From a phage: a stretch of 64,000 bases of DNA. The DNA lies in the sequence record PX393109.1; one strand, 5' to 3'. A program made the translations under genes and the position numbers. This document shows, one piece after another, positions 11,204 to 14,597 of this stretch. Every line of letters begins with the position of its first letter. Within the stretch, counting starts at the first letter, position 1. The notes below the pieces were generated by a model. The model ran no database searches and had not been told where the DNA came from. It saw nothing but the letters and a program-made list of their open reading frames with translations.

Positions 11204-11911
11204 ATGGTTGATAAGAATAAAGTATTCCAGGTTCTGCAAGCTGGCCGTGGTACTATTAACCCACTCAGCGATGTAGGCGCTGTAGCTGGTGAGAAAACCC
11301 AGTCTGTAGTTAGCGGATTAAGCCAGCTACAGAATCCTTCGGCACTTAAGGCAGAAGCTCTTAATAAGGCCGGTATAGATCCAGCCTATATCAACGCAGC
11401 CCAGATAGCTATGGAGGGTAACTTATCCAGCATCTCTACGCTAGTTGCCTACGGTGATGAATCTGTACAGAACATGTACTCCAGAATTAACATAGCCAAG
11501 AACTATGCAGCAGCCATGGATAAATTCGGTGTAGCTACGGCATGTACCCCATTTAACTCTGTGATGGGTATCGTGGGTGGTATTGGCCAACGAGCACTGA
11601 ATACAGTCACAGAGGCCGTTGGGGAAGCAGCTAACAGCATTGAGGAGTTCCTGGGCCTGGACGATACCGAAGATCTTCTGGTTAAGGCTCAGGAACTTAA
11701 GGATACTCTGGATGGTGCTTTTGAGTCGGTAGCTACTTTCGTTAAGGACGTAACCGACTACATTAACGAAGAGGCATTACTCCTTAAAGAGTACATGACT
11801 ACCGCAATTAACTCAGCACTTACTGAAGTACTTGGTGACTGGGTTGATGGGGAATGCACTTCAGCTATTATGGATACGGTCCTTAGCCCAGAGGTTAGAC
11901 AGTACTTATGA
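11204..11911 (+). CDS. hypothetical protein
   Basis: 235-aa ORF directly upstream of the glycosyltransferase cluster. Confidence 0.6.
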   Translation: MVDKNKVFQVLQAGRGTINPLSDVGAVAGEKTQSVVSGLSQLQNPSALKAEALNKAGIDPAYINAAQIAMEGNLSSISTLVAYGDESVQNMYSRINIAKNYAAAMDKFGVATACTPFNSVMGIVGGIGQRALNTVTEAVGEAANSIEEFLGLDDTEDLLVKAQELKDTLDGAFESVATFVKDVTDYINEEALLLKEYMTTAINSALTEVLGDWVDGECTSAIMDTVLSPEVRQYL

Positions 11912-12444
11912 TAAAGAGAATAATGTGTGTAGCTAGCGGTCCTTCTCTAACCGAGGAGGATTATTTACTACTTGCTAGTAAGTCCGACTTGGTTATTAGC
12001 GCTAATAACGCCATGTTCTCATCCAGACCTCCCAATATAGTTTATGGATTCGATCCTATCTGGTGGGAGCATAATTATAATAATGTCCCAAGCACATGCT
12101 CTAAGTACAGCCATCTTCCTGTAGAGAATCACCCAGATGTAAAACAGTTCTTCTACTTGAATAGTTGTTATAGCTCGGGCGCTCAAGCTATCTTCTTGGC
12201 CAGCGTATTTGCTCCTAAAGAGATAGTACTTCTCGGCTATGACTGTGATATTTCAGATGGTAGCCATTTCCATGGAGATCATACTGGTGGGTTAACTAAT
12301 CCAGATCTTGAAACAGTTGCTAAATGGATTGAGGACTATTACTTGGTCCAGAGATACCTTCCAGATAGTATTACTATAATCAATTGTACCAGAAGGACTA
12401 AAATAACATGCTTCGAGAGGCTAAGTATAGAAGACCTGCCATAA
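11908..12444 (+). CDS. glycosyltransferase-like protein (GT42 / DUF115-like Rossmann fold)
   Basis: N-terminal IMCVASGPSLTEEDY resembles the Cst-II / Maf-type GNGPSL nucleotide-sugar binding start. Confidence 0.5.
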   Translation: MIKRIMCVASGPSLTEEDYLLLASKSDLVISANNAMFSSRPPNIVYGFDPIWWEHNYNNVPSTCSKYSHLPVENHPDVKQFFYLNSCYSSGAQAIFLASVFAPKEIVLLGYDCDISDGSHFHGDHTGGLTNPDLETVAKWIEDYYLVQRYLPDSITIINCTRRTKITCFERLSIEDLP

Positions 12445-13043
12445 TTGTAGCAGATGGACCATCGGCAAGAGGATTCACTCCTCCACATGAGATACCGATA
12501 TTTGCGGTTAATGGTGCCATAGAGTGGTTACCCAGAGCTAATTACTTCTTTACTCTGGATCCTAGCCAAGCTAATCTATGCCGTATCCAGAATCCTAGGA
12601 TGGGTACTCGTTATTACCTTGCTGTGGACGAAGCAGATATGCATCTATATTCTGGTTATAAAGCACACTTACTTAAGCGGGACGAACATCGTGGGGAGGA
12701 GCCTATCTATGGTACTCCTCTATGGTGGCTGTGGAGATGGCGAGCAGTTCCTGGGTTATCTGAGGATCCTGATGTAATCAGTTCCGGGAATAGCGCTTAT
12801 GGGGCGATCGGATTAGCTTATCATATGGGTCACACTGATCTCTTGTTGGTTGGGGTAGATGGTAGCCCAGAACCAAGAGTATCTGGTGGGGTACCAAATA
12901 ACCTTAGCCATCTTCCTATTTTAATTAAGTCGGCTACAGAAAAGATAAATATACAGTCGCTATCAGGGATTGGTGGGACTCGTAAAACTACTGTTGAGGA
13001 ATGGGTGAATGAAGTTACTGTATATAGCAAATTGTCCTGGTAG
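12408..13043 (+). CDS. glycosyltransferase-like protein, paralog of the upstream gene
   Basis: AIIVADGPSA...IFAVNGAIEW...FTLDP parallels the upstream protein. Confidence 0.5.
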   Translation: MLREAKYRRPAIIVADGPSARGFTPPHEIPIFAVNGAIEWLPRANYFFTLDPSQANLCRIQNPRMGTRYYLAVDEADMHLYSGYKAHLLKRDEHRGEEPIYGTPLWWLWRWRAVPGLSEDPDVISSGNSAYGAIGLAYHMGHTDLLLVGVDGSPEPRVSGGVPNNLSHLPILIKSATEKINIQSLSGIGGTRKTTVEEWVNEVTVYSKLSW

Positions 13044-13977
13044 TTCACATCAGATAACTAACTTCAGTACCATGTGGAAATATCATCTCCGAGGCGCTCT
13101 GGAGGCTAATGGAGTAGAGTTAGTATTATGGCCAGAGTACCACGATTCGGTTAATCCTCATGTCTATGCTGATCAAGTATTAGAAATAGCTCGGGAAGAG
13201 AAGTGCGATCATATCTTATATGTGGGAGTACGTCCGTTTACTCAGATTCCTCTAGAAATAGGAGAATACCTTAAGAAGCACTTTAAGGGATTAGTTACCC
13301 ATATCTATGATGGTTCGATGCTAGACTGTAAACAGGTAGACGTAACTTTCACTCTTCGGGACGATACCTATAAGTACTTAGACAATCCGAGTCGTCTGAA
13401 AAGGCATCTGGATAATAACTGGCAGGTAGGGTGGGCAGCTGATGATAAGCTATTCTACCCAGAGAAGATGTCGGATGGTGTACTTAGGATATTCGTAGAC
13501 CATCCGCTATTTGACCTGTCGGACTTCGATTACTCCCTAACCATGATGATGAACCTTAAGCATATTCCGGTTCCTCACGTATCTTACACTCTTACCGATA
13601 ATGGATTATGCGTTATCGACGAGGAGAATATAAGTGTTGAGGAGTATCGTCGTGGAGGAGTAAGCAGTCAGGAGTTCGCTGCATTAATCAGATGCTGCGA
13701 CATCTTCATAGTTACTCATAAGGAGTCGTTAGGCCTTACTGTCCTGGAAGCGGCTCGGTGCGGAGCTCTGATAGTAACTAAGGAAGGGCTTATTCCTAAA
13801 GATCGTCTGGAATCTGTGGAGCATCACATAGTTGGCTCTAAGATAAACTGGGACGAAATACTCCTTAAGCTTAACAGAACCAAGATTGCTGATAAGGTTA
13901 AAGATTGTACCTGGGATAACGTGGCTAAGAACATGATCCAGGGATTTAAACATATGGAGAAGACTAAATGTCGCTAG
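13009..13977 (+). CDS. GT-B fold glycosyltransferase (GT1/GT4-like)
   Basis: KESLGLTVLEAARCGALIV matches the E-x7-E retaining GT-B motif. Confidence 0.6.
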   Translation: MKLLYIANCPGSSHQITNFSTMWKYHLRGALEANGVELVLWPEYHDSVNPHVYADQVLEIAREEKCDHILYVGVRPFTQIPLEIGEYLKKHFKGLVTHIYDGSMLDCKQVDVTFTLRDDTYKYLDNPSRLKRHLDNNWQVGWAADDKLFYPEKMSDGVLRIFVDHPLFDLSDFDYSLTMMMNLKHIPVPHVSYTLTDNGLCVIDEENISVEEYRRGGVSSQEFAALIRCCDIFIVTHKESLGLTVLEAARCGALIVTKEGLIPKDRLESVEHHIVGSKINWDEILLKLNRTKIADKVKDCTWDNVAKNMIQGFKHMEKTKCR

Positions 13978-14597
13978 TGGTTACGGTATTTCGTAAGGGT
14001 AAGGACTTCACAGAAGATCACGTTAAATGGGTAGGTAGACAACTCCCAGAAGGTACAAGATATGCATGTATCTCTAAAGAGCCTATCGAAGGAGTTGAGT
14101 GGATACCTATGAAGCATGATTATCCTGGCTGGTGGAGTAAGATGGAGCTATTCACTATCCAGGAGCCATTCGTGTTCTTCGATTTAGATACAGCAATTAT
14201 CGACGATATCACATTCCTGCTGAACTGTGACGAATCAACTATTCTCCGAGACTGGTACCATACTGGGATGGTTAACAGTAGCGTGATGCGTGTTGAGCCT
14301 ATCTTAGCTGAGCGCATCTGGAATGCTTGGATAGTTAGTCCAGATAGATTCATGGCTAATCACTCTGTAGGTGGTGATCAGGAGTTTATCTGCCCATTCT
14401 TTAATGGAGTACCTCGCATACAAGATCTCTACCCAGGTAAATTCTGTTCCTACAAGGTATCAGTAGTAGGTCCTGACCAGGAGCATTACTGTCACAGGTC
14501 TACCGGAAACGGGTCGGTGCCTAATGGGGTTGCAGTAGTTTGTTTCCATGGTACCCCTAGGCCATGGAATTTAAAGTATTCATGGATCCCTAAATAA
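13968..14597 (+). CDS. putative glycosyltransferase (DXD motif)
   Basis: FVFFDLDTAIIDD DXD-like motif; last gene of the cluster. Confidence 0.45.
   Translation: MSLVVTVFRKGKDFTEDHVKWVGRQLPEGTRYACISKEPIEGVEWIPMKHDYPGWWSKMELFTIQEPFVFFDLDTAIIDDITFLLNCDESTILRDWYHTGMVNSSVMRVEPILAERIWNAWIVSPDRFMANHSVGGDQEFICPFFNGVPRIQDLYPGKFCSYKVSVVGPDQEHYCHRSTGNGSVPNGVAVVCFHGTPRPWNLKYSWIPK

What the first reader, a model, noticed from the sequence alone, without database searches (positions are those of the whole stretch)
11204..14597. Four-gene glycosyltransferase cluster in the early region
Two tandem paralogs with a Cst-II/DUF115-like GPSL N-terminus, a GT-B enzyme with the E-x7-E motif and a DXD-motif protein are co-linear, preceded by a 235-aa unknown protein and a strong terminator. 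Candidate roles are DNA hypermodification by glycosylation (which would pair with the dUTPase and dCTP-deaminase-like nucleotide genes downstream), glycosylation of virion proteins, or remodelling of host surface glycans. None of these can be chosen from sequence alone.
Basis: partly seen in the sequence, partly recalled or inferred. Interest (0 to 1): 0.7.

Follow-up and report, generated by a model that had tools for sequence, protein, structure and literature searches.

The report
Phage P1-type glycosylation gene cassette
The four genes are real sugar-transferase genes: they are the counterparts of four never-explained, dispensable genes of the classic phage P1 (pmgO, pmgP, dbn, pmgQ), here gathered into one operon, and they belong to a cassette found in hundreds of phages of Gram-negative bacteria that most likely puts a short sugar chain on virus-particle proteins rather than on DNA.

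Summary
Observation confirmed. A hairpin/T-run terminator lies at 11160-11179. It is followed by five + strand ORFs with overlapping stops and starts.

- 235 aa: DUF7217.
- 178 aa and 211 aa: two MptE-like/DUF115 proteins, Cst-II/Maf-like.
- 322 aa: GT-B enzyme with E-x7-E.
- 209 aa: GT8-like GT-A enzyme with DxD.

New points:
- The four enzymes are homologues of P1 PmgO, PmgP, Dbn and PmgQ. These genes are nonessential in P1 and their function is unknown.
- O→P→(0-2 variable tailoring genes)→Q is a conserved cassette. The PmgP family has about 1,190 representatives at 50% identity. O-P, P-Q and Q-P fusion proteins exist.
- The variable slot holds methyltransferases, a sulfotransferase, extra GTs, a phosphatase, or Dbn as here.
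- In many unrelated temperate phages the cassette sits directly after the major capsid gene. In XacN1, whose virions stain for glycoproteins, it heads the tail operon.

Best reading: glycosylation of virion protein(s), confidence 0.45.

Main rival (0.2): sugars on hypermodified thymidine. The 95%-identical relative IME392 carries a 5-hmdU kinase cluster with a PIG-L deacetylase, and a 2025 paper groups it with phages whose thymidine carries oligosaccharides.

The acceptor cannot be settled in silico.

The parts
11160..11179 (+). Intrinsic-terminator-like hairpin (8-bp stem, 5 G-C pairs, TTCG loop) followed by TATTTTT. It separates the upstream ligase/ACP-like/88-aa genes from the five-gene unit.
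11204..11911 (+). 235-aa DUF7217 protein, first gene of the unit. Its stop overlaps the next start (ATGA). The family includes a minor virion protein of Ackermannviridae. It is a possible acceptor, or simply an older resident gene behind which the cassette was inserted.
   Evidence: Pfam DUF7217 1.8e-77. 581 phage records, mostly Felix O1-like and Ackermannviridae, never next to GT genes there. LIMEstone1 ORF129, a 25-kDa 'unknown structural protein' found by MS; the equivalence with the DUF7217 gene is inferred from size and gene order only (PMC3296691). A homologue without GT genes in Ab1-TPeters.
11908..12444 (+). 178-aa MptE-like/DUF115 protein, homologue of P1 PmgO. Motifs: GPSL (11938-11949), SSG, GYD, HxHGxH.
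   Evidence: phrog_4603 1.8e-35. MptE-like 1.9e-4. Family profile against Cst-II E=0.002. Invariant D49, W52, S90, G91, G110, D112, H120. phmmer to P1 PmgO 1e-24.
12408..13043 (+). 211-aa MptE-like/DUF115 protein, homologue of P1 PmgP (48% identity). Motifs: GPS (12456-12464), NSAYGA, GVD, SHLP.
13009..13977 (+). 322-aa GT-B (GT4-like) glycosyltransferase, homologue of P1 Dbn / P7 Glt (47% identity over the full length). The E-x7-E motif lies at 13723-13749. It occupies the variable 'tailoring' slot between PmgP and PmgQ.
   Evidence: tblastn. Pfam Glycos_transf_1 1.9e-5. Invariant H237, E239, E247. Same O-P-x-Dbn-Q order in lambdoid contig L182.
13968..14597 (+). 209-aa GT8-like (retaining GT-A) glycosyltransferase, homologue of P1 PmgQ / P7 HdmD (33% identity). 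The DxD motif lies at 14181-14189.
   Evidence: tblastn. phrog_1962 2.5e-55. Profile against the PDB: Skp1 alpha-GalT 8.8e-7, glycogenin 2e-5. AF2 pLDDT 96.9. Foldseek hits to GT8 structures. Invariant K58, D72, D74, G136-D137, S161, K163, H194.

Best explanation
The unit 11204-14597 carries a self-contained phage glycan-building cassette. It comprises two MptE-like (Cst-II/Maf-type) transferases (PmgO-like and PmgP-like), a GT4-like GT-B enzyme (Dbn-like) and a GT8-like retaining GT-A enzyme (PmgQ-like).

Shown:
- the enzyme families;
- homology to P1 pmgO, pmgP, dbn and pmgQ;
- conservation of the O→P→(variable genes)→Q order;
- gene fusions among O, P and Q;
- a variable slot filled by glycan-tailoring enzymes;
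- frequent embedding in head or tail gene modules.

Inferred:
- The enzymes act in sequence in the cytoplasm of the infected cell, using host nucleotide sugars, and build a short, lineage-variable oligosaccharide on one or more virion proteins.
- The MptE-like pair probably uses a CMP-activated ulosonic acid. CMP-Kdo is the only such donor present in all the Gram-negative hosts.
- The GT8 enzyme probably uses UDP-Glc or UDP-Gal, and the GT4 enzyme UDP-HexNAc or UDP-hexose.
- In this phage a candidate acceptor is the co-translated DUF7217 protein, or a head or tail protein encoded elsewhere.
- The modification is dispensable for growth in the laboratory. Its benefit (particle stability, masking, adhesion) is unknown.
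For: 1. Enzyme identity.

2. P1 homology: Dbn 47%, PmgP 48%, PmgQ 33% identity over nearly the full length, PmgO at 1e-24. In P1, pmgO-pmgP-ppp-pmgQ lie downstream of the annotated late promoter LPpmgL, next to pmgR and pmgS. All four are nonessential (PMC10695390).

3. Cassette conservation: O→P→Q in the same order in nearly all of about 90 loci. Fusion proteins exist: O-P (P0286), P-Q (P0293, P0361) and Q-P (P0378, P0347). In the phage collection all 22 records with a Dbn match also appear among the 27 records with a PmgP match. In IMG/VR the 80 best Dbn-encoding loci are all at 46-49% identity, and those overlapping the PmgP loci are P1-like. In metagenome contigs Dbn sits next to O/P/Q-type genes.

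4. Variable slot: FkbM and class I methyltransferases, an NDP-sugar transferase, GT2, a sulfotransferase, a phosphatase, and PIG-L next to Dbn. This pattern is typical of tailored glycans.

5. Structural-gene context:
- Among same-strand neighbours in 16 non-redundant non-P1 loci the commonest Pfam families are portal (7), capsid (6), TerL (5), head completion protein (5) and ClpP (4).
- The cassette lies directly after the capsid gene in HK97/ClpP-type (L011, L018, L019, L029), HK97/S78-type (L180) and lambda E-type (L184) head modules.
- It lies before head-completion and tail genes in L178.
- In XacN1 it heads the operon that runs into the tail sheath genes. XacN1 virions contain at least two Schiff-stained glycoproteins (PMC5852040).

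6. In L033 the P-Q pair adjoins a large glycan cluster that includes a prolyl-hydroxylase-type 2OG oxygenase.

7. The best solved-structure relatives of PmgQ and PmgP include protein-glycosylating enzymes: glycogenin, Skp1 GalT, GlyE and Maf.

8. DUF7217 is probably a virion component in LIMEstone1 (2 unique peptides; identity of ORF129 with the DUF7217 gene inferred from size and gene order).
Against: - No glycoprotein has been demonstrated for this phage, for P1, or for any cassette-bearing phage with the cassette shown to be responsible. The XacN1 authors credited two other GT genes.
- In this window the cassette is not in the structural arm. It lies among replication and transcription genes on the + strand, about 14.5 kb from the nearest structural ORF on the - strand.
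- DUF7217 is not a conserved partner. It is absent from all other cassette loci and occurs without GT genes in hundreds of phages.
- The P1 virion proteome paper does not mention glycosylation.
- The MptE-like fold matches a pyrophosphokinase nearly as well as it matches Maf.
- This phage lineage probably has hypermodified thymidine, which offers a DNA acceptor.
Confidence: 0.45

Rival explanations
1. DNA hypermodification. The cassette, or at least the Dbn-like GT4 enzyme, adds sugars to a 5-hydroxymethyl-dU-derived thymidine modification of this phage's DNA. A HexNAc could be added and then de-N-acetylated by the phage PIG-L enzyme. This would parallel the oligosaccharide-bearing thymidines of SP-15, YerA41 and Carin-5.
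For: - The 94.7%-identical relative IME392 encodes, about 26-35 kb from the cassette, a YfbR-like nucleotidase, a divergent thymidylate-synthase homologue, a P-loop kinase, a 5-hmdU DNA kinase (3.2e-35), a PIG-L deacetylase (6.7e-14), a BCCT transporter and a methyltransferase.
- The window holds a dUTPase and a DCD-like gene.
- PMC12686479 places IME392 and EP_H11 in the 'RP13-like' DNA-polymerase group. For Carin-5 and YerA41 it reports thymidine carrying phosphate, hexose and HexNAc residues, with GT and deacetylase genes proposed as responsible.
- No other recognisable GT gene was seen in IME392's sparse annotation.
- Dbn and PIG-L are adjacent in contig L184.
- The cassette lies in the replication arm.
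Against: - The same four genes occur in P1. P1 DNA is cut by ordinary restriction enzymes (own knowledge), and no hydroxymethylase was seen in the 20 kb of P1 inspected.
- The O-P-Q cassette lies inside head modules of small temperate phages, with no nucleotide-metabolism genes in view.
- No O, P, Q or Dbn homologue was found at E<=1 in the first 50 kb of YerA41 or around the polymerase of Ab1-TPeters. None was found by tblastn at 1e-5 in SP-15, RP13, SP-10 or the Rhizobium relatives.
- The DNA glycosyltransferases described in 10.1101/2023.12.21.572611 are JGT-like GT-A or T4-BGT-like GT-B enzymes encoded next to a thymidylate-synthase or 5mYOX gene. That paper does not mention MptE, DUF115 or sialyltransferase-type enzymes.
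- The IME392 PIG-L and the L184 PIG-L are only weakly alike.
Confidence: 0.2
2. Host envelope remodelling. The enzymes act at the inner face of the membrane on nascent LPS core or another lipid-linked glycan. They would add Kdo-like and hexose residues that mask the phage receptor, limiting loss of progeny on debris or blocking superinfection.
For: - GT8, GT4 and Cst-II-type enzymes are the families that build LPS/LOS outer cores (WaaO/R/J, WaaG/B, LgtC, Cst-II; own knowledge). LgtC is among the fold hits.
- All hosts named for cassette-bearing sequences are Proteobacteria.
- A PmgQ-type gene stands alone in a moron position next to the integrase and tail-fibre genes in lambdoid phage Chlobot.
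- P1 adsorbs to the LPS core (own knowledge).
Against: - In most temperate phages the cassette lies inside late head or tail operons, not in lysogenically expressed moron positions. In P1 it lies behind C1 operators and a late promoter, so it is off in the lysogen.
- Replacing surface LPS within one latent period would be inefficient (inference).
- PmgQ-type proteins lack the C-terminal membrane-association segment of LgtC/Waa enzymes: about 200 aa against 280-330 aa.
Confidence: 0.13
3. The MptE-like pair are not glycosyltransferases. They would be pyrophosphokinase-type enzymes (like archaeal HPPK or thiamine pyrophosphokinase) that activate a small molecule or a hydroxyl group, and the cassette would make or alter a soluble metabolite or signal, for example for counter-defence.
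For: - Pfam hits lie below the gathering score.
- The genes are nonessential in the laboratory, as many counter-defence genes are.
Against: - The sequence profile links PmgO to Cst-II specifically, across the CMP-binding motifs.
- The pair is invariably linked, and sometimes fused, to a bona fide GT8 enzyme, and it travels with sugar-tailoring enzymes.
Confidence: 0.08

Closest known systems
Phage P1 genes pmgO, pmgP, pmgQ (operon pmgN-pmgO-pmgP-ppp-pmgQ) and dbn (downstream of ban); P7 hdmB, hdmC, hdmD and glt
   Same: Homologous over the full length: Dbn 47%, PmgP 48%, PmgQ 33%, PmgO about 29%. The O→P→Q order is the same, and all four genes are present together.
   Different: In P1 dbn lies 7 kb away in the ban operon and a Ser/Thr phosphatase gene (ppp) fills the slot between pmgP and pmgQ. 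Here Dbn fills that slot, the genes form one operon behind a DUF7217 gene, and the phage is a lytic myovirus of about 116 kb with its own multisubunit RNA polymerase. The P1 genes have no assigned function and are only known to be nonessential.
Campylobacter Cst-II/Cst-I sialyltransferases (CAZy GT42) and Maf flagellin nonulosonic-acid transferases (Pfam MptE-like/DUF115)
   Different: The phage proteins are 180-210 aa and have a much shorter lid region (own knowledge of Cst-II). A counterpart of the catalytic His188 of Cst-II is not established. Donor and acceptor are unknown. They always occur as an O/P pair.
GT8 retaining glycosyltransferases (glycogenin, Skp1 alpha-galactosyltransferase, GlyE, LgtC, Waa core enzymes)
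   Same: GT-A fold, DxD plus a C-terminal His as metal ligands, and conserved Lys and Gly-Asp.
   Different: A minimal 200-aa version with 10-18% identity to solved members. No Pfam Glyco_transf_8 hit.
Virion glycosylation by virus-encoded glycosyltransferases (mycobacteriophages, e.g. cluster F1; chlorovirus PBCV-1)
   Same: GT genes carried by the virus and associated with structural genes in many homologous loci. Glycoproteins are seen in virions of one cassette-bearing phage, XacN1.
   Different: Different enzyme families and different hosts (Gram-negative). No direct proof here.
Sugar-bearing DNA bases: T4 alpha- and beta-glucosyltransferases, 5mYOX/ThyS-linked phage GTs, SP-15/YerA41/Carin-5 thymidine oligosaccharides
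   Same: The phage lineage has the 5-hmdU pathway and is grouped with these phages by its DNA polymerase. The location is in the replication arm.
   Different: No homology found to those GTs. The cassette is not adjacent to the base-modification genes. It is shared with phages in whose examined loci no such pathway genes were seen.

Membership tests
P1 PmgO/PmgP/PmgQ/Dbn gene set | Full-length sequence homology of each of the four proteins to the P1 protein | tested here: met
   tblastn: Dbn 46.5-48% over 97-99% of the query, PmgP 48% over 90%, PmgQ 33% over 98%. PmgO by phmmer 1e-24.
P1 PmgO/PmgP/PmgQ/Dbn gene set | Conserved gene order O→P→(slot)→Q on one strand | tested here: met
CAZy GT8 / GT-A retaining transferases (209-aa protein) | DxD motif plus a distal His as metal ligands, conserved across the family | tested here: met
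   D72, D74 and H194 are invariant in 60 sequences. They align with the glycogenin DxD region and the C-terminal GxxKPW-type region.
CAZy GT8 / GT-A retaining transferases (209-aa protein) | GT-A fold closest to solved GT8 members | tested here: met
   AF2 pLDDT 96.9. Foldseek probability 1.00, TM 0.55-0.66 to glycogenin, GlyE, Skp1 GalT and LgtC.
CAZy GT8 / GT-A retaining transferases (209-aa protein) | Match to the curated Pfam model Glyco_transf_8 | tested here: not met
   No Pfam hit at E<=1. The relation is seen only with a family profile or by fold.
Pfam MptE-like / DUF115 (178-aa and 211-aa proteins) | Score at or above the Pfam gathering threshold | tested here: not met
   21.7 and 18.7 bits against a cut-off of 34.6. 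Several homologues do carry a precomputed PF01973 hit.
Pfam MptE-like / DUF115 (178-aa and 211-aa proteins) | Fold of solved members (Maf 5mu5, MptE 8sd5) | tested here: met
CAZy GT42 (Cst-II-type sialyltransferases) | Sequence similarity across the CMP-binding motifs (GNGPS, TSG, GID) | tested here: inconclusive
   PmgO profile against 1ro7/2drj: E 0.002-0.004, 18-20 bits, motifs aligned. The PmgP profile gives no PDB hit below E 0.4.
CAZy GT42 (Cst-II-type sialyltransferases) | Catalytic His in the lid (His188 of Cst-II) and use of a CMP-ulosonic acid donor | not testable with these tools
   Conserved His residues exist (H120 and H125 in PmgO; H168 in PmgP), but equivalence and donor need structures or assays.
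GT-B / GT4-like (322-aa protein) | E-x7-E motif in the C-terminal Rossmann domain | tested here: met
   E239 and E247 are invariant, within FIVTHxESxGLxVLEA.
GT-B / GT4-like (322-aa protein) | Score at or above the Pfam Glycos_transf_1 gathering threshold; two-domain GT-B fold | tested here: inconclusive
   24.7 bits against 26.4. P1 homologues are named 'glycosyltransferase family 4' and carry PF00534.
Phage DNA glycosyltransferase systems (T4 AGT/BGT; 5mYOX/ThyS-linked GTs) | GT gene adjacent to the base-hydroxymethylating or oxidising gene | tested here: not met
   The thymidylate-synthase homologue and 5-hmdU kinase lie about 26-29 kb from the cassette in IME392 and outside the window.
Phage DNA glycosyltransferase systems (T4 AGT/BGT; 5mYOX/ThyS-linked GTs) | Presence of a sugar-bearing base in virion DNA | not testable with these tools
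   Needs nucleoside LC-MS.
Virus-encoded virion glycosylation systems | GT genes embedded in or next to structural gene modules | tested here: inconclusive
   Not so in this window: the cassette is in the replication arm, behind a gene of a putative virion-protein family. It is so in many homologous loci.
Virus-encoded virion glycosylation systems | Glycan detected on a virion protein and dependent on the phage GTs | not testable with these tools
   Only indirect evidence: Schiff-positive bands in XacN1 virions.

The most novel reading that the evidence does not exclude
In this lineage the P1-type cassette has been recruited to DNA. Together with the 5-hmdU kinase cluster and the PIG-L deacetylase, it would build an amino-sugar or Kdo-containing oligosaccharide on thymidine. 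That would identify the first enzymes for the SP-15/YerA41/Carin-5 class of DNA glycans, and it would imply that one glycan cassette can be switched between protein and DNA acceptors.
Probability: 0.18. Interest if true: 0.85.

Novelty: new variant of a known kind. Interest (0 to 1): 0.6.

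Why it matters
- P1 has been a laboratory workhorse for 70 years, yet pmgO, pmgP, pmgQ and dbn have no function. This locus brings all four into one operon. Together with the fusions and the conserved order, that argues they form one pathway.
- The cassette is widespread: about 1,190 family representatives at 50% identity. It repeatedly follows the capsid gene. This points to virion glycosylation as a common and overlooked trait of phages of Gram-negative bacteria. That would bear on phage stability, immune recognition and therapy.
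- The idea can be tested directly with existing P1 knockouts.
- If the cassette instead decorates hypermodified thymidine, it would supply the missing enzymes for oligosaccharide DNA modifications that block sequencing and restriction.

Tried and rejected
- **Literature.** Searches for DUF7217, PmgO/P/Q/Dbn, MptE-like in phages and P1 glycosyltransferases found no functional study. The P1 virion paper does not discuss these genes.
- **ACP-like gene (10569-10823) as part of the system: rejected.** It lies upstream of the terminator. In IME392 and EP_H11 it is separated from the unit by about 1 kb of extra genes. It is absent from other cassette loci.
- **DUF7217 as an obligatory partner: rejected as a general rule**. 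It is kept only as a local candidate acceptor.
- **Single-sequence scan of viral contigs with Dbn.** It found nothing. An alignment query worked but returned only loci at 46-49% identity that look P1-like.
- **The three unknown proteins of the IME392 5-hmdU cluster (359, 344 and 302 aa).** No Pfam or PHROG match for any of the three; the 359- and 344-aa proteins also gave no PDB sequence match. Whether that cluster has its own GT remains open.
- **PIG-L as a shared module partner.** The IME392 and L184 enzymes are only weakly similar, so no link can be claimed.
- **Homologues in the thymidine-oligosaccharide phages.** Only the first 50 kb of YerA41 and the polymerase region of Ab1-TPeters were scanned. 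Carin-5, RP13 and SP-15 were covered only by tblastn at E 1e-5.
- **Composition.** GC is 0.43-0.45 across the unit, close to its surroundings (0.43-0.47), giving no sign of recent foreign origin.

Full report
**What the window is**

Megablast of 10500-15000 finds only two records: Escherichia phage vB_EcoM_IME392 (116 kb, 94.7% identity) and EP_H11 (93.8%). The + strand arm of the window (about 1-28.3 kb) holds these genes:
- a multisubunit RNA-polymerase β' fragment
- an NAD-dependent ligase
- an ACP-like protein
- a NADAR protein
- an Rv2179c-like exoribonuclease
- a dUTPase
- a dCTP-deaminase-like gene

The - strand arm, from about 29.2 kb, corresponds to the tail, capsid and terminase genes of IME392.

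**The observation**

- 235-aa protein. It is Pfam DUF7217 (1.8e-77).
- 178-aa and 211-aa proteins.
  - Both hit Pfam MptE-like below the curated threshold.
  - They belong to PHROGs 4603 ('alpha-2,3-sialyltransferase') and 2111.
  - A profile of PmgO-type sequences matches Cst-II structures at E about 0.002, across the GPSL and SG...GxD motifs.
  - The two are distant paralogues: E 0.007 pairwise.
- 322-aa protein. It carries an invariant H-x-E-x7-E block and near-threshold Glycos_transf_1 hits.
- 209-aa protein. It has no Pfam hit. Its family profile matches GT8 structures at 8.8e-7 to 2e-5. Its model (pLDDT 96.9) superposes on glycogenin, GlyE, Skp1 GalT and LgtC. D72, D74 and H194 are invariant.

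**Identity with P1 genes**

tblastn against 50,697 phage records gives these matches:
- the GT-B enzyme is P1 Dbn / P7 Glt (46.5-48% identity, full length);
- the 211-aa protein is PmgP (48%);
- the 209-aa protein is PmgQ / HdmD (33%);
- the 178-aa protein matches PmgO (1e-24).

In P1, pmgO-pmgP-ppp-pmgQ lie downstream of the annotated late promoter LPpmgL and behind C1 operators. dbn follows ban, 7 kb away. A CRISPRi essentiality map, and the knockout library it cites, score all four genes as nonessential (PMC10695390). No paper in the held library assigns them a function.

**A conserved cassette**

- A scan of IMG/VR with the PmgP alignment returned 80 loci.
- HMM labelling shows O→P→Q in the same order in nearly all of them, with 0-2 genes between P and Q.
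- No other gene family is shared across lineages.
- The slot between P and Q holds an FkbM methyltransferase, a class I methyltransferase, an NDP-sugar transferase, a GT2, a sulfotransferase, the P1 phosphatase, or Dbn as here.
- The order O-P-x-Dbn-Q also occurs in a lambdoid contig, just upstream of the terminase gene.
- In the phage collection every record with a Dbn match also has a PmgP match. The IMG/VR loci and metagenome contigs inspected show Dbn beside, or within 10 kb of, O/P/Q-type genes wherever the flanks are long enough.
- An exhaustive profile search finds 1,188 representatives at 50% identity with E<=1e-3, and 104 with E<=1e-30.
- Among these are O-P, P-Q and Q-P fusion proteins. 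This is classic evidence that the three act together.

**Where the cassette sits**

- Among same-strand neighbours in 16 non-redundant non-P1 loci the commonest Pfam families are portal (7), capsid (6), TerL (5), head-completion protein (5) and ClpP (4).
- The cassette directly follows the major capsid gene in head modules of three different types:
  - HK97 with ClpP (L011, L018, L019, L029);
  - HK97 with an S78 protease (L180);
  - lambda E-type with a decoration protein (L184). There Dbn is followed by a PIG-L deacetylase, and a concanavalin-like protein is interspersed.
- In L178 the cassette precedes head-completion and tail genes.
- In phiNP and L182 it lies between the late-gene start and the terminase.
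- In the jumbo phages XacN1 and RAS14 the cassette has Q fused to an extra N-terminal domain. It heads the operon that continues into three proteins of 1,088-1,317 aa and then the tail sheath genes. The XacN1 paper shows at least two Schiff-stained bands among virion proteins (PMC5852040).
- In a 197-kb contig the P-Q pair adjoins a 10-gene glycan cluster. The cluster includes nucleotide-sugar enzymes and a prolyl-hydroxylase-type 2OG oxygenase.

**The DUF7217 gene**

- The family occurs in 581 phage records, chiefly Felix O1-like phages and Ackermannviridae, never beside GT genes.
- In LIMEstone1 the 25-kDa product of ORF129, two genes from gp3, was detected in virions by MS (PMC3296691). ORF129 matches the DUF7217 gene in size and position; this equivalence was not checked by sequence.
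- A distant relative with the same polymerase type, Ab1-TPeters, has a DUF7217 gene in its replication arm without GT genes.
- The cassette was therefore inserted behind a resident gene. The tight coupling (ATGA overlap) makes DUF7217 a candidate acceptor here, but no more than that.

**The DNA alternative**

About 26-35 kb from the cassette, and outside the window, IME392 carries these genes:
- a YfbR-like nucleotidase
- a divergent thymidylate-synthase homologue
- a P-loop kinase
- a 5-hmdU DNA kinase
- two unknown proteins
- a PIG-L deacetylase
- a BCCT transporter
- a further unknown protein
- a methyltransferase

A 2025 paper lists IME392 and EP_H11 with RP13, YerA41, Carin-5 and SP-15 on polymerase similarity. 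It reports oligosaccharide-bearing thymidine in Carin-5 and YerA41 (PMC12686479). The phage's DNA is therefore very likely hypermodified, and a sugar step is conceivable.

Four points argue against the cassette being responsible:
- it is not adjacent to that cluster;
- it has no detected homologue in YerA41 (first 50 kb), Ab1-TPeters, RP13, SP-15 or SP-10;
- it belongs to enzyme families different from the known DNA glycosyltransferases;
- it is shared with P1 and with small temperate phages in whose examined loci no hydroxymethylated-base genes appeared.

I give this rival 0.2.

**Verdict**

The 'glycosyltransferase cluster' label is right.
- The cluster is the consolidated form of a P1-type glycan cassette.
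- Shown: the families, the homology with the P1 genes, the cassette architecture, the fusions, the tailoring slot and the structural-gene context.
- Inferred: stepwise assembly of a short glycan on virion protein(s) from host nucleotide sugars; a CMP-ulosonic-acid donor for the O/P pair; DUF7217 as a local acceptor.
- The acceptor needs experiments. P1 knockouts make them easy.

Noticed in passing
outside the window; L093 (IME392, MH719082) 31175-40713, minus strand: A thymidine-hypermodification-type cluster. In order: YfbR-like HD nucleotidase, a divergent 357-aa thymidylate-synthase homologue, a P-loop kinase, a 5-hmdU DNA kinase (HMUDK_hel 3.2e-35), two unknown proteins (359 and 344 aa), a PIG-L deacetylase, a BCCT betaine/choline-type transporter, an unknown 302-aa protein and a class I methyltransferase. 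A transporter and a GlcNAc-type deacetylase inside such a cluster are unusual. The chemical nature of the modified base is unknown.
   Followed up: partly
window 25513-25983 and 26269-26892: A dUTPase (1.9e-35) followed by a 207-aa dCTP-deaminase-like protein (9.5e-24, two matched stretches). This fits a dUMP supply route for 5-hmdU synthesis.
   Followed up: partly
window 10569-10823: An 84-aa acyl-carrier-protein-like gene (PP-binding 1.5e-8, with a DSL motif) whose start overlaps the stop of the NAD-dependent ligase gene. No acyl- or phosphopantetheinyl-transferase partner was seen nearby.
   Followed up: no
window 22483-23142 and 23847-24560: A NADAR-domain protein (7.9e-27) and an Rv2179c-like 3'-5' exoribonuclease (9.8e-19) in the replication arm. 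YerA41 also has a NADAR gene.
   Followed up: no
window 76-1164; L093 16457-21418: Split multisubunit RNA-polymerase β/β' genes in a phage of only about 116 kb.
   Followed up: no
window 11111-11204, compared with L001 12612-13602 and L002 3612-4626: IME392 and EP_H11 carry about 1 kb of extra genes between the 88-aa ORF and the DUF7217 gene, including a 'putative inhibitor of host Lon protease'. The window lacks them.
   Followed up: no
L002 (EP_H11) 5830-6465; L001 (IME392) 15416-16384: Annotation gaps in the relatives. EP_H11 has no CDS for the PmgP-type gene. IME392 starts the Dbn-type gene 37 codons too late, judged against the conserved N-terminus.
   Followed up: yes
L184 1982-10123: A metagenome phage contig with this order: lambda-type capsid gene, MptE-like gene, concanavalin-like (Laminin_G_3) protein, O-like gene, Dbn-like gene, PIG-L deacetylase, N6/N4 DNA methyltransferase, PmgQ-like gene, then tail genes. 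This suggests a HexNAc transfer followed by de-N-acetylation within a head module.
   Followed up: partly
L033 370-11213: A 197-kb viral contig in which the PmgP-PmgQ pair faces a glycan cluster. The cluster holds GT25, a DXD sugar transferase, three GT2 enzymes, GT4, UDP-GlcNAc 2-epimerase, a Polysacc_synt_2 dehydratase, an RmlD-like reductase and a prolyl-hydroxylase-type 2OG-Fe(II) oxygenase.
   Followed up: partly
L009 (Escherichia phage Chlobot) 4998-5717: A PmgQ-type GT8 gene stands alone, without O or P, between the integrase and tail-fibre genes of a lambdoid phage. This is a typical lysogenic-conversion position.
   Followed up: no
L097 (XacN1) 9720-11036; L096 (RAS14) 9720-11036: In these jumbo phages the PmgQ domain is the C-terminal half of a 438-aa protein whose N-terminal domain is unassigned.
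   Followed up: no
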